This document shows, in pieces, positions 1 to 6,532 of a stretch of DNA of 6,532 bases. The DNA is taken from the IMG/VR virus record IMGVR_UViG_2711768009_000014; one strand, given 5' to 3'. Positions within the stretch are counted from its first letter, which is position 1; every line of letters starts with the position of its first letter. The stretch is from a virus. Its lineage: Duplodnaviria > Heunggongvirae > Uroviricota > Caudoviricetes. Both the position numbers and the translations under genes were made by a program. Below the pieces are notes generated by a model that made no database searches, was not told the origin of the DNA, and saw only the letters and a list, made by a program, of their open reading frames with translations.

Positions 1-140
1 CATTGAGATTTTCTACAATCGTCAGCGTCGTCACTCTCGTCTGGGGAATATCTCCCCGGCAGCCTTCAGGGAAAAATATCATCAGATGGCTGCTTAAAAA
101 AAGAACAAATGGTAGTGTCCGCTATTGCCAGTACACCTCA
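1..140 (+). mobile_element. IS3-family insertion sequence, right end only (orfB 3' end plus terminal inverted repeat ending ...CA at 140); the rest of the element lies outside the window
   Basis: Bases 1-140 are the exact reverse complement of 6393-6532; identity stops abruptly at 140/141 and 6393/6392. Contains the C-terminal coding end of a transposase with the IS3-family OrfB signature ...FYNRQRRHSRLG..SP..F... The specific IS name cannot be assigned from memory. Confidence 0.8.
2..97 (+). CDS. IS3-family transposase OrfB, C-terminal 31 codons (5'-partial, runs off window start)
   Basis: Frame 2 translation IEIFYNRQRRHSRLGNISPAAFREKYHQMAA* with stop TAA at 95-97; the YNRQRRHS motif is typical of the C-terminus of IS3-family integrase-domain transposases. 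Confidence 0.75.
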   Translation: MEIFYNRQRRHSRLGNISPAAFREKYHQMAA

Positions 141-325
141 GGATAGCGGTCATGTGATGCCGGTTTCCCGGTAACTCAGCACCGGTATCTGAGTCAACGT
201 TTTCTCTACTGGGTCATTTCCGATACGCCCTGCCTGCTGACAGGCTTTCATCACATCTGAAAATATAGCACCCTGACTGATACTGTAGTACCTAAGGTTC
301 CAGAAACTGTGATGTATCCGGCACA

Positions 326-347
326 GAAAAGCCCCTCCGGAGAGGGC
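326..347 (-). terminator. Possible rho-independent terminator downstream of the tRNA cluster
   Basis: Minus strand reads CCCTC-tccg-GAGGG (5-bp stem) followed by GCTTTTCTGTG; short stem, imperfect U-run. Confidence 0.3.
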
Positions 348-584
348 TGGAGAGTGGCGCTATGTGCCATTGCATGATGCCGGGTGCCTCCCGGTGAATT
401 CAGTACCAGCACCTGAATCCGCGATTATCCCATATACCTACTCGCTGATTGCCCCTCCGCACAGGGGGATTCACCATGCCAGTTTCTTTTAACAAACTCC
501 CCGCAAAACAGACAACTGTCAACCGTCTGAATTGTGAGACATTTAAAAAAAAGGCCCGCAAAAGCGAGCCAGGGAAAATAAGTG

Positions 585-661
585 TGGCGCGTTGTACTGG
601 ATTCGAACCAGTGACCGATTGCTTAGAAGGCAATTGCTCTGTCCGGCTGAGCTAACAACGC
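585..661 (-). tRNA. tRNA-Arg (anticodon UCU)
   Basis: Minus-strand sequence GCGTTGT-TA-GCTC-AGCCGGACA-GAGC-A-ATTGC-CTTCTAA-GCAAT-CGGTC-ACTGG-TTCGAAT-CCAGT-ACAACGC-G-CCA folds as a canonical cloverleaf with perfect 7-bp acceptor stem, GTTCGAATC T-loop, encoded CCA; anticodon loop CT-TCT-AA. Confidence 0.85.
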
Positions 662-674
662 ATGATGCAGATAA

Positions 675-751
675 TGGACCGCCATCGGGGACTTGAACCC
701 CGCGCAGCCAGCTTCGAAGGCTGGCGCTCTTTCCTGATGAGCTAATGGCGG
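675..751 (-). tRNA. tRNA-Arg (anticodon UCG)
   Basis: Minus-strand CCGCCAT-TA-GCTC-ATCAGGAAA-GAGC-G-CCAGC-CTTCGAA-GCTGG-CTGCG-CGGGG-TTCAAGT-CCCCG-ATGGCGG-T-CCA; perfect acceptor, anticodon and T stems; anticodon loop CT-TCG-AA. The 5' nucleotide is C (C1-G72), unusual but tolerated. Confidence 0.8.
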
Positions 752-758
752 TATGTGA

Positions 759-834
759 TGGTGGCCCTTGCTGGATTTGAACCAGCGACCTGGCGATTAT
801 GAGTCGCTCGCTCTCACCACTGAGCTAAAGGGCC
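759..834 (-). tRNA. tRNA with CAU anticodon (tRNA-Ile2 lysidine-type or tRNA-Met; cannot be distinguished from sequence alone)
   Basis: Minus-strand GGCCCTT-TA-GCTC-AGTGGTGA-GAGC-G-AGCGA-CTCATAA-TCGCC-AGGTC-GCTGG-TTCAAAT-CCAGC-AAGGGCC-A-CCA; perfect 7-bp acceptor stem, encoded CCA. A CAU/Arg/Arg tRNA trio in this order matches the ileZ-argN-argO arrangement recalled from Stx-converting lambdoid phages. Confidence 0.85.
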
Positions 835-874
835 GGGAGCCGCATAATAACGACGCGTAATTAATTCTTCAATA

Positions 875-1828
875 TCATCCGTTCTGGCTGACTAAATCCT
901 GTACTTCCCGAACCGTCTGCTCAAAACGTTCAGTCTCCAGCTCAACGCCAATTGCACGACGCCCGAGCGCCAGTGCCGCTTTCACTGTCGAACCCAACCC
1001 CATGAAAAAATCTGCAATCAGGTCACCCGGACGACTGCTAGCGCTGATTATCTGCTGCAGCATTTCTGCCGGTTTTTCGCACGGATGTTTCCCGGGATAG
1101 AACTGCACCGGTTTATGCGTCCACACATCGGTATACGGCACCTGCACCGTCACGCCAAAATACCGCCGCAGATGTTTATATTCACTCAGCAGCTCCGCAT
1201 ACTGCCGGTTCAGTGAGGTATACGTATCCACCAGCTGGTGGTGGAGCTTTTCCAGTTCACCACGCCGATGCTTCTCTTCTGCCACCCGGGCAAACAGCGC
1301 CTGTAATTTCAGATAATCGCTTTCATTCGGCAACTGCCACTGACCGGCACTGAACCAGTGCGACACCATGTTTTTCTTTCCTGTGGCATCTGCAATCTGT
1401 TTTGCCGTTATCCCCAGGGCAGCTCGCGCATCACGAAAGTAAGAAATCAGCGGGGCCATCACATGCTGTTTCAGTGCACTGCCCTTCGCCGCATACCCGG
1501 CATCTTTCGGACGATACGGCCCCTGATAATGTTCCGCGAACAGAATGCGCTCTGTGGCGGGGAAATACGCCCGCAGGCTTTCCTTGTTGCATCCGTTCCA
1601 GCGTCCGGACGGCTTCGCCCAGATAATATGGTTCAGCACACTGAAGCGTTCACGCATCATGATTTCGATATCAGATGCCAGGCGATGACCACAGAACAGG
1701 TAAAGACTTCCGGCAGGTTTCAGCACCCGCCAGAACTGCGCCAGACACTGGTCCAGCCACTTCAGGTAATCATCGTCGCCCTTCCACTGGTTATCCCAGC
1801 CCTCAGGCTTCACTTTAAAGTACGGCGG
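875..1828 (-). CDS. DNA methyltransferase, beta-class (N6-adenine or N4-cytosine), 5'-partial because the N-terminus is interrupted by the N gap
   Basis: ORF 875..1813 extends in frame to the gap edge, where the codons read PPYFK (catalytic motif IV, DPPY; base 1829 is consistent with a GAC Asp codon). Near the C-terminus the AdoMet-binding motif I appears as DFFMGLGST. Motif IV before motif I defines the beta permutation. No restriction endonuclease candidate is adjacent. Confidence 0.85.
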   Translation of the reverse strand, partial: PPYFKVKPEGWDNQWKGDDDYLKWLDQCLAQFWRVLKPAGSLYLFCGHRLASDIEIMMRERFSVLNHIIWAKPSGRWNGCNKESLRAYFPATERILFAEHYQGPYRPKDAGYAAKGSALKQHVMAPLISYFRDARAALGITAKQIADATGKKNMVSHWFSAGQWQLPNESDYLKLQALFARVAEEKHRRGELEKLHHQLVDTYTSLNRQYAELLSEYKHLRRYFGVTVQVPYTDVWTHKPVQFYPGKHPCEKPAEMLQQIISASSRPGDLIADFFMGLGSTVKAALALGRRAIGVELETERFEQTVREVQDLVSQNG

Positions 1829-1829
1829 G

Positions 1830-1860
1830 NNNNNNNNNNNNNNNNNNNNNNNNNNNNNNN
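1830..1860. other. Run of 31 N (assembly gap or masked bases)
   Basis: Literal n characters at 1830-1860; true length and sequence unknown, so reading frame across the gap is not defined. Confidence 0.99.
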
Positions 1861-1952
1861 GCGCAAAGCAGTGGGCCTGAGGTTTGCTTGTGAACCCAAC
1901 GCATGAGCAGATGGCTGGTGGGTGCCCCTAACACCCACCAGCCGCCCATTTA

Positions 1953-1984
1953 CCACAAATAAAAAAGCCTTCACTGCGGAAGGC
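1953..1984 (-). terminator. Rho-independent terminator overlapping the stop codon of the 65-aa ORF
   Basis: Minus strand: GCCTTC-cgcagt-GAAGGC (6-bp perfect stem) followed by TTTTTTATTTGTGG. Confidence 0.55.
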
Positions 1985-2168
1985 GTCTGTAACAACCGAA
2001 CTGATAGTCTGCCAGACCCGCCATAACCAGCTGGGTCAGTATTAACTGGCAGCGTTCGCGTGAAAGGTAAGTATTCTGCGCTATCTCCCCGACTGTCGCC
2101 GGTTCGGTAACGCTTAATTCATTAAACACCACTCTGGCGGTTTCTGTCATATCCTGCTGTTTTAGCAT
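1971..2168 (-). CDS. Hypothetical small protein (65 aa), possible helix-turn-helix DNA-binding fold; first ORF downstream of pR'/tR'
   Basis: ATG at 2168-2166 preceded by AAAGGAAAAGAC; protein MLKQQDMTETARVVFNELSVTEPATVGEIAQNTYLSRERCQLILTQLVMAGLADYQFGCYRRLPQ. The segment TVGEIAQNTYLSRERCQLILTQL resembles an HTH recognition helix; no family assigned. Confidence 0.45.
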   Translation of the reverse strand: MLKQQDMTETARVVFNELSVTEPATVGEIAQNTYLSRERCQLILTQLVMAGLADYQFGCYRRLPQ

Positions 2169-2288
2169 GTCTTTTCCTTTTCCGGTTAACGTGACACACC
2201 AATAACTCTTGTCGAAAAAGCCAGCAAGCTGAAAGACAGGTATTCACCGCCACCAGCGCGTTTACTGTACTGACGCGATTTCAGTCAT

Positions 2289-2310
2289 AAAAAACCCGCT
2301 CGGCGGCGGG
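2289..2310 (-). terminator. tR'-like rho-independent terminator of the late promoter leader
   Basis: Minus strand CCCGC-cgccga-GCGGG followed by TTTTTTATG; lies about 45-65 nt downstream of the predicted pR' start. Confidence 0.6.
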
Positions 2311-2351
2311 TTGTAGAAACTCTTCTAACGTCAGGCATAAAACGCCCATCG

Positions 2352-2387
2352 TTATAACGAATTTACCACAGATTCCGGAAAAATCAA
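2352..2387 (-). promoter_or_regulatory. Late promoter pR'-like (Q-dependent), with lambda-type -10 TAAATT and downstream AACGATGGG sigma70 pause element
   Basis: Minus strand, immediately after the Q stop codon: TTGATT (2387-2382) - 16 nt - TAAATT (2365-2360) - cgttata - ACGATGGG. Lambda pR' as I recall it has TTGACT, TAAATT and AACGATGGG at matching spacing. Confidence 0.6.
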
Positions 2388-2392
2388 CCTTG

Positions 2393-3214
2393 TTACCTAG
2401 TTACCTTTTTTAACTGCCGCTCAGCCCATGCTTCTTCAATATCAAACCGGGTCACCAGCGCATCATAAAATTTCTTAACTGTTTTTTCCCATGACGCGCG
2501 TGTTATCTGGTTTGTCACCTCGCATATAGCATTAAATGCCTCCGTTGATGGTAGTCTTTCATAGCCACGACCACCACAACGCTGGCAGTCTCTGATAACA
2601 GGCATACCACGTTTTACCGACTCTTCACGATGAATGGCGACACCACGCCCACGGCAATCCTTACAGGCGGTGGAAACCTCACCCTTTCCGCCACACTCCG
2701 GACAGGCAACTTTTACCACCTCCCTGACTTTTTTCCATTCTTCCCAGTAAGACGGATACACACCTTTCGTACACTTTGCCCATACCGGCGGCTTACCATC
2801 CGGATACTGGATCTTGTTTGTAAAAACCTCGCTTTCAATAAATTTTTTTCCGTGACAGCAGGGGCACTGTTTTTTGCTCGCCGCGCTACGGGCATAATCT
2901 TCAAACGCATACGAAGCCATAATACGCATCACTGCCGGTTTTATTTCTGCCGGGAGTTTTCTTAACGCCGCCACGCGATCACACCGACTGAGTGCATATT
3001 CTGTCAGCAATTCTGTTGCCCGCTCTCTGTCATTCATACTAATGCCCATTTTCCCAAGGAACGCAGAAACCCCCATCTCAGCCCGATTCTGTGTCATGCC
3101 CTGCGCGGCCATCACATCAGTGATACTCAGCGCATCTTTCGACGTTGAGGCCGATGCATCAGTCAGGCCGGGGGATTTTGGGGAGTAGTATTTCGGTAAA
3201 TCTTCCAGTTTCAT
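2393..3214 (-). CDS. Q: Late-gene antitermination protein Q (lambda Q family) with an expanded cysteine-rich zinc-finger region
   Basis: 273 aa; recognisable blocks shared with lambda Q as recalled: N-terminal M-[KR]-LE...K-[FY]-x-SPKSP, TDVMAAxGM, AxYAFxDYxRSAA, C-terminal WxxTVKxxYDALV. The central region carries CPCCHGKK, CPECGGKG, CKDCRGRG and CQRCGGRG (CxxCxGxG repeats). Start ATG overlaps the rusA stop (ATGA); followed directly by the pR'-like promoter. Confidence 0.8.
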   Translation of the reverse strand: MKLEDLPKYYSPKSPGLTDASASTSKDALSITDVMAAQGMTQNRAEMGVSAFLGKMGISMNDRERATELLTEYALSRCDRVAALRKLPAEIKPAVMRIMASYAFEDYARSAASKKQCPCCHGKKFIESEVFTNKIQYPDGKPPVWAKCTKGVYPSYWEEWKKVREVVKVACPECGGKGEVSTACKDCRGRGVAIHREESVKRGMPVIRDCQRCGGRGYERLPSTEAFNAICEVTNQITRASWEKTVKKFYDALVTRFDIEEAWAERQLKKVTR

Positions 3215-3591
3215 TTTTTGACCTGCCCTTCAAGCATTATGGGATAAATCTTCACCCCCAGACGTCCACCAGATACTGGCTGAGCACGAACGATATTGAT
3301 TTCATCAAACTGCTCATCGTCCATTAGCAACCCCGCATGCGTCAGCGCATCCAGCGGCGCTTTCAGAATATTGTCCAGGTCACGGCGGCGCTTATCCGGT
3401 GGTTCTGCAATAATTTTTATTGCCAACCTTCCGGACAGGCTTAATTTCAGCCGCTGCTGGCGAACAATAAGCGCCACTGCCCGGCGATAACGCTCCCCGG
3501 CTTTTGATACAAAATATGTGCTGCCACGACGACGCCAGTAAGTGTTCACCGTCGGCGGGTAAGGTAAAACAAATTCTATGCGCTCGGTCAT
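3211..3591 (-). CDS. rusA: RusA-family Holliday junction resolvase (crossover junction endodeoxyribonuclease)
   Basis: 126 aa; motifs LPYPPTVN, PDKRRRDLDN, KAPLDALTHAGLLMDDEQF and SGGRLGVKI align with E. coli RusA (LPWPPSNN, PDRRRRDLDN, KAAFDALTKAGFWLDDAQV, KGGRLELTI). ATG abuts the upstream stop (TAAATG). Confidence 0.9.
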   Translation of the reverse strand: MTERIEFVLPYPPTVNTYWRRRGSTYFVSKAGERYRRAVALIVRQQRLKLSLSGRLAIKIIAEPPDKRRRDLDNILKAPLDALTHAGLLMDDEQFDEINIVRAQPVSGGRLGVKIYPIMLEGQVKK

Positions 3592-4650
3592 TTATGCTTT
3601 CCACTTCAGAACACCCGAATTTCTCGCGTGCATTAAAAAACGAATCAGCAACAACAGCTGACTGCCGTGTTTCTCTTCAAAATCTTTTACTCCGGCATGT
3701 AGTTCGTTACGGCATTTACGGCATAACGGAATAACAAACAAATCATCAGCCTTTGTTCCCATCCCTCCCAGTCCATGACCAATGATGTGATGCGGATCAT
3801 CTGCCTGATTGCCACACGTCATGCATTTCTGCGTTTTTACCCAGCGCGTGTATACAGGCATCTCTTCCCGTTGTGATTTCTGGCGCTGGAGATACTGAGC
3901 CGGTGACTCCGGATCAACGGCAATGCTGACCACCGTCTTTTCCTGTGGTGGGTTCTGTTGCTGGTGGACGTGAGGCAGTAACGCAATATTTTTTGTGCGC
4001 TGCTTCAGTATGCTGGTGGCTGTCTGCTCTCCCGGTATGATGTCGCTTTCACTGTACACAGAGCGAATTTTTTCCGCACGCAACCCCAGCGAACGACGTA
4101 ATACCGCTTCCGGTAGCGCGTCCGCCACCTGATTGCGGACCGCCCACCAGGATAATTCAGCCAGAGATAATTCACGCTCCTGCGTACCGCTTATTGCGTG
4201 ACCGATGACGTCAATCATCCATGCTGACAGGTTTTGATGAGCAAGTTGCTCGAGTGATTCGGATGTCTGGTCACGCAGCTGGTTGTCGCAGTGCCAGCAC
4301 AACACCATTGCGCCGGTACCATAACGGTGAATGACGGTTTCGCTGTGATGATAATCGCCGTGTGGCCACTGGCAGGATTTAATATGGCGCAACAGCCAGT
4401 CAGACAATGCACCAGCACCACCAGCAGCACGAATCACCCGTGCGTTACTGAAAAACGGCAGCAATGTTTTGTCTTCCACCAGCGGCTGGCGAGCGGCAGG
4501 AACGACCCCGGACGGCAGATTACGCATGCTTTTTGGTTCCGGCTCCACCAGTATTCTGCCGTTATGGAATGCTGACATTGATTCACGGCCTGGCTTAACG
4601 ATAACCAGACCGAGTTCCGGTACCAGAACAGGTCGAAGTAATACCCGCAC
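3592..4650 (-). CDS. Prophage DUF968-like protein (YdfU-like) with C-terminal HNH-like Cys/His motif
   Basis: 352-aa ORF with GTG start preceded by a strong SD (tctGGAGGtaatGTG); C-terminal CMTCGNQADDPHHIIGHG...CRKCRNELH resembles an HNH/zinc-ribbon nuclease motif. Size and position (immediately upstream of rusA and Q) match the ydfU-type gene of Qin-like prophages; family assignment is from memory. Alternative ATG start at 4578. Confidence 0.6.
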   Translation of the reverse strand: MRVLLRPVLVPELGLVIVKPGRESMSAFHNGRILVEPEPKSMRNLPSGVVPAARQPLVEDKTLLPFFSNARVIRAAGGAGALSDWLLRHIKSCQWPHGDYHHSETVIHRYGTGAMVLCWHCDNQLRDQTSESLEQLAHQNLSAWMIDVIGHAISGTQERELSLAELSWWAVRNQVADALPEAVLRRSLGLRAEKIRSVYSESDIIPGEQTATSILKQRTKNIALLPHVHQQQNPPQEKTVVSIAVDPESPAQYLQRQKSQREEMPVYTRWVKTQKCMTCGNQADDPHHIIGHGLGGMGTKADDLFVIPLCRKCRNELHAGVKDFEEKHGSQLLLLIRFLMHARNSGVLKWKA

Positions 4651-5227: not shown

Positions 5228-5383
5228 TTACTCCTCAGGTTCGTAAGCTGTGAAGACAGCGACCTCCGTCTGGCCGGTTCGAATTCGTACCTCGCAGAGG
5301 TCTTTCCTCGTTACCAGTGCCGTCACTATGACGGTTAAACAGATGACGATCAGGGCGATTAACATCGCCTTTTGCTGCTTCAT
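5228..5383 (-). CDS. hok: Hok/Gef-family membrane toxin (type I toxin), HokD/RelF-like, 51 aa
   Basis: MKQQKAMLIALIVICLTVIVTALVTRKDLCEVRIRTGQTEVAVFTAYEPEE: single transmembrane helix plus the conserved C-terminal ...RKxLCEVRIR..G.xEVAAF.AYE block of Hok proteins; SD GGAG 9 nt upstream. The leader (GCTTGAGGCT ... TAGCCTCTTAC ... GCAAGGAGAAG.AGGC.ATGAA) parallels the plasmid R1 hok mRNA leader as recalled. Confidence 0.9.
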   Translation of the reverse strand: MKQQKAMLIALIVICLTVIVTALVTRKDLCEVRIRTGQTEVAVFTAYEPEE

Positions 5384-5431
5384 AGCCTGCTTCTCCTTGC
5401 CTTTCGGCACGTAAGAGGCTAACCTAGATTT

Positions 5432-5505
5432 GCCGTTCATAGATTGAGCCTCAGATTAATGTTAAGCGTCTTGCCGGACGCGTAATGTTAACTGGGGCTT
5501 TTCTC
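5432..5505 (+). ncRNA. Putative Sok-like antisense RNA (antitoxin of the hok locus)
   Basis: On the plus strand inside the hok leader: TTGCCT (5397-5402) - 17 nt - TAACCT (5420-5425), with a transcript complementary to the mok-like SD/start region and ending near GGGGCTTTTCTCT (about 5495-5505), which resembles the 3' end of R1 Sok (GGGGCUAUCUUCUUU). Ends are approximate; no clean terminator hairpin identified. Confidence 0.4.
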
Positions 5506-5559
5506 TATCTGCCTTTTGGTGTTCATGCCTGAGACAGATAGCCTCAAGCACCCGCTGCA

Positions 5560-6193: not shown

Positions 6194-6392
6194 TTAACCC
6201 GCAGTGCTTTCAACTGATGAGGGGAACAAAATCTTTTCATCAAACCCTGCATTCATATCATGAACAGCAACACACCAATCCATCGACGAACGATTATCAA
6301 GAGCCTCCATGATTTCATCCATGCGGCGTAGGTCATACAGGTAAATGCTTTTATCGCCAATGGTGTAAAAGCCAATTTTTTTCGGTGATGGA
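6194..6392 (-). pseudogene. 3' fragment (about 65 codons) of a gene truncated by the IS insertion
   Basis: Open frame runs from inside the IS end (6424) across the junction at 6393/6392 to the stop at 6194; the first 10 codons are IS-derived, so only ...PSPKKIGFYTIGDKSIYLYDLRRMDEIMEALDNRSSMDWCVAVHDMNAGFDEKILFPSSVESTAG* is native. Product not recognised. Confidence 0.5.
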
Positions 6393-6532
6393 TGAGGTGT
6401 ACTGGCAATAGCGGACACTACCATTTGTTCTTTTTTTAAGCAGCCATCTGATGATATTTTTCCCTGAAGGCTGCCGGGGAGATATTCCCCAGACGAGAGT
6501 GACGACGCTGACGATTGTAGAAAATCTCAATG
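6393..6532 (-). mobile_element. Second copy of the same IS3-family element end, inverted orientation; the rest of the element lies outside the window
   Basis: Exact reverse complement of 1-140. Confidence 0.8.
6436..6531 (-). CDS. IS3-family transposase OrfB C-terminal fragment (5'-partial, runs off window end)
   Basis: Mirror image of 2..97; same translation ...IEIFYNRQRRHSRLGNISPAAFREKYHQMAA*. Confidence 0.75.
   Translation of the reverse strand: MEIFYNRQRRHSRLGNISPAAFREKYHQMAA

What the first reader, a model, noticed from the sequence alone, without database searches (positions are those of the whole stretch)
875..2168. Q-controlled late-operon cargo: small HTH-like protein plus orphan beta-class DNA methyltransferase, in the slot where Stx phages carry toxin genes
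Between tR' and the tRNA cluster lie a 65-aa ORF closed by its own terminator and a DPPY...FxGxG (beta-permuted) methyltransferase with no restriction-enzyme partner visible. Because Q-modified RNA polymerase is terminator-resistant, both would be expressed only on prophage induction, which fits a role in modifying progeny phage DNA to evade host restriction. The methyltransferase target and the role of the 65-aa protein are unknown.
Basis: partly seen in the sequence, partly recalled or inferred. Interest (0 to 1): 0.6.

Follow-up and report, generated by a model that had tools for sequence, protein, structure and literature searches.

The report
Known phage M.EcoGII-type methylase cassette
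The two genes are a common, already characterised prophage cassette, a small winged-helix protein plus a close relative of the non-specific adenine methylase M.EcoGII, so the finding is ordinary; the one thing that may be new is a conserved folded RNA leader between the two genes that looks like an on/off switch for making the toxic enzyme.

Summary
On the minus strand the order is Q, pR'/tR', a 65-aa ORF (2168..1971) with a terminator-like hairpin, a 31-N gap, a beta-class N6/N4 methyltransferase (1829..875), then three tRNAs. The interpretation needs three corrections.

1. The methylase target is not unknown. The visible 314 aa are 92% identical to M.EcoGII, the characterised non-specific adenine methyltransferase. 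[quoted passage not shown]
2. The pair is not in the toxin slot. In about 300 Stx2 phages the same pair sits upstream of the tRNAs and stx2AB. The empty stx slot here is at window 541-544. At least 80% of the region occurs in 1114 of 5426 complete E. coli genomes.
3. The gap stands for about 145 nt in relatives. It hides the start codon, 35 residues and the D of DPPY.

The 65-aa protein is a winged helix (AF2 pLDDT 92.5) of unknown role.

Possibly new: the ~140-nt spacer before the methylase is a conserved structured RNA with strong covariation and no Rfam match. It has two conserved alternative folds, one of which pairs the start region. It also precedes Mom, C5-methylase and ParB+glycosyltransferase genes in other phages.

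The parts
2393..3214 (-). Late antiterminator Q (273 aa, phage-82/QuuQ type with a DnaJ-like zinc motif)
   Evidence: PF03589 E 1.6e-53 and PF00684 E 5.9e-07. Annotated quuQ / antitermination protein in relatives.
2348..2387 (-). Candidate late promoter pR' (TTGATT, 16 nt spacer, TGG-TAAATT), followed by AACGATGGG
   Evidence: Read directly from the sequence. The resemblance to lambda pR' (TAAATT ... AACGATGGG pause element) is from my own knowledge. The consensus scan did not list it.
2286..2312 (-). tR'-like intrinsic terminator (AACCCGCCGCCGAGCGGGTT + TTTTAT)
   Evidence: Terminator scan. Annotated as a rho-independent terminator at the same place in SfV.
1971..2168 (-). 65-aa winged-helix protein (phrog_331; NCBI names it 'TrmB family transcriptional regulator' or 'DprA-like winged helix')
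   Evidence: ORF. phrog_331 E 1.4e-37. PF01978 is only weak: E 0.0026, 18 bits against a cutoff of 25.6. Source names. AF2 pLDDT 92.5, topology H1-S1-H2-H3-wing. Foldseek.
1958..1984 (-). Terminator-like hairpin that contains the stop codon of the 65-aa ORF, followed by a T run
   Evidence: Terminator scan. A hairpin of different sequence sits at the same position in other genera (alignment A3).
1861..1956 (-). Visible 5' two-thirds of a conserved structured RNA leader (P1, P2, P3 and the start of P4). The rest, including the methylase start codon, is in the gap.
   Evidence: CM R1 hit at window 1956..1813, 65 bits, E 6e-15. Covariation. No Rfam family.
1830..1860 (.). Scaffold gap: 31 N standing for about 145 nt
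   Evidence: Alignment with E. coli O121 and Stx2a phage EH1910. The missing stretch holds P4/P5 of the leader, the ATG and residues 1-35 (MLNTVKISSCELINADCLEFIRSLPENSVDLIVTD).
875..1829 (-). Orphan beta-class adenine DNA methyltransferase, M.EcoGII family (residues 36-352 plus stop)
   Evidence: PF01555 E 2.5e-37. 289/314 identical to M.EcoGII (sequence taken from PMC11551740 supplement). 10 aa differences from the intact O121 copy, including S313L in motif I.
585..834 (-). tRNA cluster: tRNA(CAT) (called Met by ARAGORN, Ile in RefSeq), tRNA-Arg(TCG), tRNA-Arg(TCT)
   Evidence: ARAGORN. Rfam tRNA. Annotation in relatives.
541..570 (-). Terminator-like hairpin (570..553) and the empty stx slot (541-544)
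   Evidence: Terminator scan. Window 544-1829 aligns to L001 3924-5210 and window 451-541 to L001 2501-2591, so stx2AB lies in between in the Stx2a phage.

Best explanation
This is the late-regulatory segment of an stx-negative lambdoid prophage, bounded here by IS600 copies. It carries the widespread cassette 'small winged-helix protein, hairpin/terminator, structured leader, M.EcoGII-family methyltransferase'.

Shown: the methylase is a close homologue (92% identity) of M.EcoGII, a beta-class enzyme shown by others to methylate adenine N6 in any sequence context in dsDNA and ssDNA, and to act on RNA as well.

Inferred: in the lysogen the gene is silent because transcription from pR' stops at tR' and at the second hairpin. 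After induction, Q-modified RNA polymerase reads through, the enzyme is made late, and it hypermethylates replicating phage DNA. Progeny are then protected from the many restriction systems that adenine methylation blocks.

Inferred from comparative data obtained here: a second safety layer acts on translation. The ~140-nt leader can adopt two conserved folds. Fold A is a three-way junction (P1-P2-P3) that leaves the start region free. In fold B the 3' strand of P3 pairs with the start region instead.

The 65-aa winged-helix protein is a frequent but dispensable companion, and its role is unknown.
For: Identity:
- PF01555 E 2.5e-37.
- 289/314 identical to M.EcoGII.
- Phage 1720a-02, named by the M.EcoGII authors as carrying 'a very similar MTase', is our hit H16 at 94.5% nt identity.

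Biochemistry and silence in lysogens: PMC5778455 and PMC12707154.

Late-operon position:
- Q, tR', ORF, hairpin, methylase and tRNAs are all on one strand.
- The same order, followed by stx2AB or by nanS-p and lysis genes, is seen in relatives.
- The same order follows other Q types in SfV, cdtI, mEp460 and Morganella and Providencia phages.

Orphan status.

Prevalence: 1114 of 5426 complete E. coli genomes hold at least 80% of window 100-2400.

Leader:
- Present in 58 of 80 species-level loci by nhmmer, always abutting the ATG, and in 63 loci by the covariance model.
- On a MAFFT alignment 84.6% of cells are paired against 33-43% when partners are slid, with 0/500 shuffles reaching the covariation score.
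- With divergent members, 34 of 41 pairs show compensatory changes against 13-17 when slid.
- The alternative fold is also conserved.
- The P3 3' strand is complementary to the start region, with z below -2 in 46 of 73 leaders. In several divergent leaders shown (e.g. L245, L182, L161, L139) the duplex covers the AUG itself.
Against: - No expression or methylation data exist for this locus. The literature read shows silence in lysogens but not induction-dependent activity.
- This particular copy may be dead. Its start codon and 35 residues are in the gap. The prophage segment is bounded by IS600 copies. It also carries S313L inside motif I (FMGLG instead of FMGSG), seen in only 2 of 171 family copies.
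- The hairpin after the 65-aa ORF is not obvious in the Providencia and Proteus leaders, so a second terminator is not universal.
- The leader mechanism rests on comparative analysis only. Both folds leave few unpaired bases before the AUG in the E. coli type. The structure-fitted alignments lean towards the model.
- The M.EcoGII sequence used was machine-read from a PDF supplement, so a few of the 25 differences may be reading errors.
Confidence: 0.8

Rival explanations
1. The cassette in this window is an inactive remnant. It sits in a cryptic, IS600-bounded prophage fragment, and its methylase is damaged and does nothing.
For: IS600 ends in inverted orientation occupy 1-141 and 6392-6532. 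The lysis and nanS-p genes that follow in relatives are replaced by the IS. The S313L change in motif I is rare in the family, 2 of 171 copies. The start codon is unreadable.
Against: The 317 readable codons are uninterrupted and 97.5% nt identical to an intact O121 gene. Only 10 aa differences exist. The x positions of FxGxG tolerate variation in other methylases (own knowledge). The IS copies may simply mark contig ends of a short-read assembly.
Confidence: 0.25
2. The biologically relevant substrate is RNA (rRNA or mRNA) rather than phage DNA. The 65-aa protein would be a specificity subunit, and the pair would tune prophage induction, as reported for another Stx-phage methyltransferase.
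For: M.EcoGII methylates RNA and DNA:RNA hybrids in vitro. In phiPA8 an MT-A70 methylase (M.EcoPA8orf6770P) plus a second protein, PNB-2, prefers 16S rRNA and raises spontaneous induction (PMC10810198). SelB-type winged helices bind RNA (Foldseek hits).
Against: The phiPA8 enzyme belongs to a different family (DPPW, MT-A70) and sits in a different part of the phage. The 65-aa ORF is absent from 36 of 109 viral and about 17 of 58 genomic methylase loci that keep the leader. The DNA activity of M.EcoGII is far stronger than its RNA activity: ~90% against ~30% of adenines.
Confidence: 0.08
3. The 65-aa winged-helix protein is the dedicated controller of the methylase. It would act either as a C-protein-like transcription factor or as a Com-like factor that binds the leader RNA and flips it to the translatable fold.
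For: It sits immediately upstream with a fixed ~140-155 nt spacing across genera. Its winged-helix fold is confident. Mu com-mom offers a precedent of a small ORF plus a toxic modification gene (own knowledge; Mu annotation 'translational regulator of Mom'). Vibrio loci have a Com-like zinc-ribbon ORF at the leader's AUG.
Against: Leader plus methylase occurs without it in a third of loci, and none of the Mom, C5-methylase or TAGT loci has it. No operator or binding site was identified. The TrmB Pfam match is below the curated cutoff. It lies upstream of a terminator-like hairpin and is therefore not obviously co-regulated.
Confidence: 0.2
4. The conserved spacer is not a translational switch. 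It would instead be a DNA-level element (its own promoter or operator, with 'TGTGAAAAT' as an extended -10) or an independent small RNA.
For: The motif TGTG(A/G)AAAT just 5' of P1 is nearly invariant in Enterobacterales and resembles TGnTATAAT. P1 itself hardly varies, with only 2 compensatory events.
Against: G-U pairs are frequent in the stems on this strand, for example 45 G-U at one P5 pair and 22 U-G in P2. These would be A-C mismatches on the other strand or in DNA. In divergent members the 5' flank (TAGAAAT, GAGAAT, TGAAAT) loses the TG and often the -11 A. The element always ends at a start codon. Compensatory changes link the P3 3' strand to the start region.
Confidence: 0.15

Closest known systems
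M.EcoGII / M.EcoGI, non-specific adenine DNA methyltransferases of cryptic prophages in E. coli O104:H4 C227-11 (Murray et al. 2018, PMC5778455)
   Same: 92% identity over the 314 readable residues. Same length class (352 aa in intact relatives, 349 aa for M.EcoGII). Same beta-class order DPPY - TRD - FxGxG. The TRD (ITAKQIADATGKKNMV.HWFSA.QWQLPNE) is nearly identical between the two; a four-helix TRD containing a helix-turn-helix was described from an AlphaFold2 model (PMC11551740). Prophage location and orphan status also match.
   Different: 25 substitutions or indels relative to the machine-read M.EcoGII sequence. FMGLG replaces FMGSG in motif I. The N-terminus is unreadable here. Activity and specificity of this copy are untested.
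Q - hypothetical protein - DNA methylase - tRNA(Ile/Met)-Arg-Arg - stx2AB region of Stx2-converting phages (e.g. Stx2a_EH1910, Stx2a_WGPS2, 1720a-02, phiP27)
   Same: Same genes in the same order at 87-94% nt identity. The 65-aa protein is 97-100% identical.
   Different: No stx genes. The Stx2a phage has about 1.3 kb (stx2A, stx2B and flanks) between window positions 541 and 544. Downstream DNA is cut by IS600.
Phage Mu com-mom: late, toxic DNA-modification gene under translational control by a small protein that opens an inhibitory mRNA hairpin
   Same: Works alike in outline: a toxic DNA-modifying enzyme silent in lysogens, a small ORF directly upstream, and an mRNA structure that can occlude the start site. 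The same leader precedes genuine Mom-family genes (PF25680, E 7e-71) in other phages. In Vibrio a Com-like zinc-ribbon ORF starts at the leader's AUG.
   Different: Not a member. The 65-aa protein is a winged helix, not a Com zinc ribbon. The covariance model finds nothing in Mu com-mom (best 4.7 bits with filters off). The Mu mechanism is recalled from my own knowledge and was not tested here.
M.EcoPA8orf6770P + PNB-2, the Stx-phage MT-A70 methyltransferase holoenzyme acting on 16S rRNA (Gong et al. 2023, PMC10810198)
   Same: An Stx-type prophage methyltransferase annotated as an adenine DNA methylase, which works with a second small protein.
   Different: Different fold family (MT-A70, DPPW), a different genome position (gp5) and a different partner. 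No sequence relation to the window's genes was found.
Controller (C) proteins of restriction-modification systems
   Same: A small DNA-binding-type protein encoded just upstream of a gene whose premature expression is harmful.
   Different: C proteins are Xre-type HTH proteins with C-boxes and belong to complete R-M systems (own knowledge). Here the fold is a winged helix, there is no nuclease, and no C-box was looked for.

Membership tests
Beta-class N6/N4 amino DNA methyltransferase (Pfam PF01555) | Catalytic motif IV (D/S)PP(Y/F) lies N-terminal to AdoMet motif I FxGxG | tested here: met
   PPYFKVK sits at the first readable residues and DFFMGLGST at residues 307-315 of the full-length numbering. 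PF01555 scores 129 bits against a cutoff of 26.7. The D of DPPY is in the gap and is inferred from relatives.
M.EcoGII family (non-specific adenine methyltransferases) | Close sequence relationship to M.EcoGII across the catalytic core and the TRD | tested here: met
   289/314 identical and 299/314 similar, with 2 gaps. Reference sequence from PMC11551740 supplement.
M.EcoGII family (non-specific adenine methyltransferases) | Methylates adenine in any sequence context | not testable with these tools
   Needs expression plus SMRT, nanopore or LC-MS. Shown for M.EcoGII by others.
Orphan methyltransferase | No cognate restriction endonuclease gene adjacent | tested here: met
   The neighbours are the 65-aa wH ORF and tRNAs. 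In complete relatives the region continues with stx2AB or with nanS-p and lysis genes.
Lambdoid Q-dependent late operon | Q gene followed on the same strand by a promoter-proximal terminator and then the cargo | tested here: met
   PF03589 Q. Terminator-like site 2312..2293. All cargo is on the minus strand. Q-dependent read-through itself is not testable here.
Stx-converting phage | stxA/stxB genes downstream of the tRNA cluster | tested here: not met
   Window 451-541 and 544-1829 flank the position where stx2AB lies in LC567834.1. No stx sequence is in the window.
TrmB family transcriptional regulator (Pfam PF01978), the name NCBI gives the 65-aa protein | Score above the curated Pfam threshold | tested here: not met
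   18.0 bits against a cutoff of 25.6, E 0.0026. No NCBIfam hit.
Winged-helix (wHTH) fold | H1-S1-H2-H3-S2-wing-S3 topology | tested here: met
   AF2 model pLDDT 92.5, pTM 0.79, with helices 9-16, 26-33 and 37-49 and strands 53-56 and 59-62. Foldseek TM 0.77-0.81 to OhrR/MarR and IclR wH domains, though no hit reaches E 0.001.
Mu Com / com-mom translational control | Com-type zinc ribbon (four Cys) encoded upstream of and overlapping the modification gene | tested here: not met
   The 65-aa protein has two Cys and a wH fold and is separated from the methylase by ~150 nt. The R1 model finds nothing in Mu. A Com-like ORF appears only in Vibrio relatives, and weakly (PF10122 18.3 bits against a cutoff of 22.9).
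Any Rfam 15 RNA family (for the leader) | Match at or near the gathering score | tested here: not met
   Gathering scan of the window. E<=10 scan of the intact O121 leader: best is P26 on the opposite strand, 24 bits against 36. E<=1 scan of four divergent leaders found nothing at the motif.
Structured cis-regulatory RNA (for the leader) | Base pairs maintained by compensatory changes beyond controls | tested here: met
   MAFFT alignment A4: 70 compensatory cells against 8-35 when slid, 0/500 shuffles. A8: 280 against 40-64, and 34 of 41 pairs. The model-fitted alignment leans towards the structure.
Riboswitch or protein-operated translational switch (for the leader) | Ligand- or protein-dependent change between the two folds | not testable with these tools
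   Two mutually exclusive conserved folds were found. No effector is known.

The most novel reading that the evidence does not exclude
The ~140-nt spacer between the winged-helix ORF and the methylase (window 1956..1861, continuing into the gap) is an undescribed family of bistable leader RNAs. It would gate translation of toxic DNA-modification enzymes in temperate phages of Gammaproteobacteria.

The three-way-junction fold (P1-P2-P3) locks away an anti-start sequence. The alternative fold pairs that sequence with the start region, and in several divergent members with the AUG itself.

The same leader is fused at the start codon to four unrelated cargo types: M.EcoGII-type m6A methylase, Mom, C5-cytosine methylase, and ParB-like protein plus TET-associated glycosyltransferase. 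It would therefore be a portable 'safety catch' module, operated by an unknown effector. Candidates are a late phage protein such as the winged-helix or Com-like protein, a metabolite such as SAM or SAH, or co-transcriptional kinetics under Q-modified polymerase.
Probability: 0.4. Interest if true: 0.7.

Novelty: already known. Interest (0 to 1): 0.35.

Why it matters
The gene pair adds nothing new. It is annotated in more than a thousand complete E. coli genomes and in hundreds of Stx phages, and its enzyme family is a commercial reagent used for chromatin footprinting.

What could matter is control. The M.EcoGII authors noted that the enzyme is silent in lysogens and harmful when expressed, but they did not explain how it is held off or switched on. 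The conserved two-state leader found here gives a concrete, testable mechanism. Its reuse in front of Mom, C5-methylase and glycosyltransferase genes suggests a general phage solution for expressing self-toxic anti-restriction enzymes only at the right moment.

That would be of interest for phage-host arms-race biology, for RNA-switch discovery, and for tightly controlled expression of M.EcoGII-type tools.

Tried and rejected
1. The NAR 2023 'prophage rRNA methyltransferase' (PMC10810198) looked like it might be this gene. It is an MT-A70 DPPW enzyme (gp5) elsewhere in the phage, so it was rejected.

2. The first DNA-pattern scan of viral contigs used too long a second spacer and returned mostly irrelevant hits. 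It was repeated with correct spacing.

3. A pseudoknot between the 5' flank GUGA and UCAC in P3 is supported by a single event (Vibrio AUGA:UCAU) and is absent from the Mom, C5 and TAGT leaders. It was not adopted.

4. A hairpin ATCAG/CTGAT (P5b) next to the ATG shows uncompensated changes (inspection) and was dropped.

5. Pairing of CAUAG with the CUAUG start shows no covariation and was dropped.

6. Mu com-mom as a member of the leader family gave no CM hit.

7. The Vibrio 98-aa upstream ORF was tested as a distant homologue of the 65-aa protein. hhalign gave probability 3%, E 0.013, so this is unsupported.

8. Literature searches found nothing relevant. They covered the gene order with 'DNA methylase / stx2 / ileZ', the P2 stem sequence and 'RNA motif + DNA methyltransferase + mom + prophage + covariation'. 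This is absence from an open-access library only.

9. NCBIfam gave only sub-threshold relatives for the methylase (YhdJ-type, 115 bits against 292) and nothing for the small protein.

10. All 80 viral loci fetched with the 65-aa protein were 98-100% identical and therefore uninformative.
Full report
**What is in the window**

The window is one strand-coherent piece of a lambdoid prophage, read on the minus strand. Its parts, in minus-strand order, are:

- a DUF968/HNH protein (4650..3592), RusA (3591..3211) and a 273-aa Q antiterminator (3214..2393; PF03589, E 1.6e-53);
- a terminator-like hairpin at 2312..2293;
- a 65-aa ORF (2168..1971), whose stop codon lies inside a second terminator-like hairpin at 1984..1967;
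- a run of 31 N (1830..1860);
- an open frame readable from 1828 to 875 that matches Pfam N6_N4_Mtase at E 2.5e-37;
- three tRNA genes at 834..759, 751..675 and 661..585;
- another terminator-like hairpin at 570..553.

Both ends of the window (1-141 and 6392-6532) are inverted copies of the end of IS600.

**The gap**

Aligned with an E. coli O121 chromosome and with Stx2a phage EH1910, the 31 Ns replace 145 nt. That stretch holds the last third of the intergenic region, the methylase ATG and residues 1-35 (MLNTVKISSCELINADCLEFIRSLPENSVDLIVTD). Only 'PPY' of DPPY is actually readable. The full gene is 352 codons in relatives.

**What the methylase is**

A literature trail ran from an O111 STEC methylome paper to Murray et al. 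2018 (PMC5778455) and identified the family.

- M.EcoGI and M.EcoGII are beta-class enzymes on cryptic prophages of E. coli O104:H4.
- M.EcoGII methylates adenine in any context in dsDNA and ssDNA, and also acts on DNA:RNA hybrids and RNA.
- It is not expressed in the lysogen and is harmful when expressed constitutively.
- Its authors proposed that it is switched on as the prophage excises, to defeat restriction.
- A 2025 review repeats that M.EcoGII, like Mu Mom, is silent in lysogens and toxic.

The M.EcoGII sequence was recovered from the supplement of the SUPREM paper. It is 289/314 identical to the window's protein. The authors name phage 1720a-02 as carrying 'a very similar MTase'. That phage matches the window region at 94.5% nt identity.

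A different Stx-phage methylase that acts on rRNA with a partner protein (PMC10810198) is an MT-A70 DPPW enzyme elsewhere in the phage. It is not this gene.

**Context and prevalence**

- In the phage collection 315 records match, mostly Stx2 phages. There the order is Q, hypothetical protein, DNA methylase, tRNA-tRNA-tRNA, stx2A, stx2B.
- The window aligns to Stx2a phage EH1910 on both sides of stx2AB. The break lies between window 541 and 544.
- The two genes are therefore upstream neighbours of the toxin slot, not occupants of it. The window is an stx-negative counterpart.
- In complete E. coli genomes, 1114 of 5426 hold at least 80% of window 100-2400. Examples are UTI89, S88 and ATCC 11775, annotated 'DNA-methyltransferase' and 'hypothetical protein'.
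- In the O121 relative the tRNAs are followed by nanS-p and lysis genes. Here IS600 cuts that off.
- No nuclease gene is adjacent anywhere, so the methylase is an orphan.

**The 65-aa protein**

- It belongs to phrog_331, of unknown function (E 1.4e-37).
- NCBI calls it 'TrmB family transcriptional regulator' or 'DprA-like winged helix'.
- The Pfam TrmB match is below the curated cutoff (18 bits against 25.6).
- AlphaFold2 on 23 homologues gives a confident winged helix (pLDDT 92.5).
- Foldseek finds only generic wH domains: MarR/OhrR, IclR, the N-terminal domains of O-methyltransferases and SelB.
- In five diverse phages (SfV, cdtI, mEp460, Morganella IME1369_02, Providencia PSTRCR_117lys) it sits directly before the methylase. 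Protein identity falls to about 48%.
- It is not obligatory. Only 38 of 80 species-level methylase loci have it. Among 109 viral loci, 68 have it, 36 do not, and 5 lack enough upstream sequence to tell. Where it is missing, unrelated genes lie upstream.

**The unexpected part: the spacer**

The ~140-155 nt between the small ORF and the methylase ATG is more conserved than the coding DNA. Mean nt identity is 75.6% against 69.6%, and the spacer is the higher of the two in 109 of 120 pairs.

- nhmmer finds it in 58 of 80 loci, always ending at the ATG. This includes loci without the small ORF.
- On a plain MAFFT alignment of 55 distinct sequences I proposed five helices (P1-P5). 84.6% of cells are paired against 33-43% when partners are slid. 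70 cells have compensatory double changes against 8-35. 0 of 500 shuffles reach the covariation score.
- A covariance model built from this alignment finds the element in the window itself (1956..1813, 65 bits, cut by the gap). It also finds it in Vibrio and Gilliamella loci with very different stem sequences.
- On the enlarged alignment, 34 of 41 pairs show compensatory changes (13-17 when slid) and 280 cells do so (40-64 when slid). That alignment is fitted to the model, which favours the structure.
- G-U pairs are common on this strand, which argues for RNA rather than a DNA cruciform.
- No Rfam 15 family matches. Text searches found no description.

**Two folds**

Single-sequence folding gave a different structure (z -3.5 to -4.1). 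Counted on the MAFFT alignment, that structure is also conserved.

- The 5' strand of P1 (AUGGGC) can pair with GCUCAU in the 5' strand of P3. This is almost 100% paired, and the only changes are wobble-compatible.
- The 3' strand of P3 (GAUCACAAGCG) can pair with CGCUUACUGAUC, which ends just before the AUG (alignment column 144; the A of AUG is column 149). This is 82% paired, and five pairs show compensatory changes.
- The 3' strand of P1 can pair with UGAGCC.
- This dual constraint would explain the conserved C-A/A-C mismatches inside P3.
- A duplex test gives z below -2 in 46 of 73 leaders.
- In several divergent leaders shown (for example L245 Mom, L182 C5-methylase, L161 Gilliamella and L139 Vibrio) the duplex, GGUCAU/AGUCAU with AUGACC/AUGACA, covers the start codon itself.

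The simplest reading is a translational switch. In fold A (three-way junction) the start is free. In fold B it is sequestered. This is inference, and no effector is known.

**The leader is portable**

A pattern scan of viral contigs gave 128 matches. Of these, 109 are followed by the M.EcoGII-type methylase. Ten further loci have real CM hits (31-63 bits) but other genes starting at the leader's start codon:

- Mom family (PF25680, E 7e-71), in one case directly behind an Ogr/Delta late activator;
- a C5-cytosine methylase (PF00145, E 1.5e-41);
- a ParB_N-like protein followed by a TET-associated glycosyltransferase (PF20691, E 5e-35);
- in one locus, lysis genes.

In Vibrio the ORF at the leader's AUG is a 41-aa zinc ribbon. 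Its best Pfam match is Mu Com (E 0.0016, below cutoff; BLASTP to Mu Com E 0.001), and it overlaps the methylase start. Mu com-mom itself lacks the motif. The system thus works like com-mom in outline but is not a member of it.

**Is this copy functional?**

This cannot be decided.

- For: 317 uninterrupted codons and 97.5% nt identity to an intact gene.
- Against: an unreadable start, IS600 on both sides, and S313L within FxGxG, seen in 2 of 171 family copies.

**Verdict**

The finding is a correct description of an already known, very common cassette. Its proposed function matches what the literature already proposes, and one of its 'unknowns' (the target) is known. Interest in the finding as stated is low. 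It is well supported as a structured RNA, plausibly a two-state translational gate, and it deserves an experimental test.

Noticed in passing
window 1861-1956 (-), continuing into the gap 1830-1860; intact copy at L002 6290-6431 (-): The spacer before the methylase ATG is a conserved structured RNA (P1-P5) with strong covariation, no Rfam match, and a second conserved alternative fold that pairs the start region.
   Followed up: yes
L245 7549-8405; L177 11515-12009; L295; L182 3303-4461; L209 7679-9450; L277; L217; L238: The same leader RNA precedes unrelated DNA-modification genes in other viral contigs: Mom family, a C5-cytosine methylase, and a ParB_N-like protein plus TET-associated glycosyltransferase. 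In one locus it precedes holin and endolysin genes directly.
   Followed up: partly
L135 1341-1466 (Vibrio plasmid); similar arrangement in L139, L146 and L163: In Vibrio the leader's AUG starts a 41-aa CxxC...CxxC zinc-ribbon ORF whose best Pfam match is Mu Com (below cutoff). It overlaps the start of the M.EcoGII-type methylase, an arrangement like Mu com-mom.
   Followed up: partly
window 875-1829 (-), codon for residue 313 of the full-length protein: Motif I reads FMGLG instead of the family's FMGSG (S313L). Only 2 of 171 family copies in the fetched loci have this, so the change might impair AdoMet binding.
   Followed up: partly
window 541-544: This is the exact empty position where stx2A-stx2B (about 1.3 kb) sits in Stx2a phage EH1910, so the window is an stx-negative counterpart of that phage region.
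   Followed up: yes
window 319-508 (-): A full-length match to Rfam STnc100 (RF02076, 123.6 bits, E 1.3e-27) lies downstream of the tRNAs and the stx slot. A terminator-like hairpin is at 348..330.
   Followed up: no
window 5228-5553 (-): A hok/sok-type toxin-antitoxin locus: an Rfam sok match at 5553..5378 (112 bits) and a 70-aa ORF whose C-terminal part looks Hok-like. The relative is annotated hokD.
   Followed up: no
window 1-141 and 6392-6532: Both window ends are the same IS600 (IS3 family) terminus in inverted orientation. Either the prophage piece is bracketed by two IS600 copies, or the contig simply ends in a collapsed repeat.
   Followed up: partly
window 2348-2387 (-): A lambda-like late promoter is readable by eye (TTGATT, 16 nt spacer, TGG-TAAATT, then AACGATGGG). 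With tR' it would give a short RNA of about 66 nt, like lambda 6S or StxS. The consensus scan did not list it.
   Followed up: no
window 759-834 (-): ARAGORN calls the CAT-anticodon tRNA 'Met', while RefSeq annotates the same gene in relatives as tRNA-Ile (the ileZ type, presumably lysidine-modified).
   Followed up: no
leader alignment A4, columns 141-144 (in the window this falls in the gap): A GATC (Dam site) immediately before the methylase ATG is almost invariant in Enterobacterales leaders. It is part of the alternative helix but could also matter at the DNA level.
   Followed up: no
window 1949 (-) and homologous leaders: The invariant AUGGGCG at the start of P1 is preceded by a purine-rich stretch (GUGA/GGAG/GAGA). 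It could be a start codon of a very short, non-conserved upstream ORF (for example MGGWWVL*). Ribosome entry there could influence the switch.
   Followed up: no
L245 7427-7492: A tRNA match (36 bits, above the gathering score of 29) lies about 55 nt upstream of the leader in a Mom-carrying viral contig.
   Followed up: no
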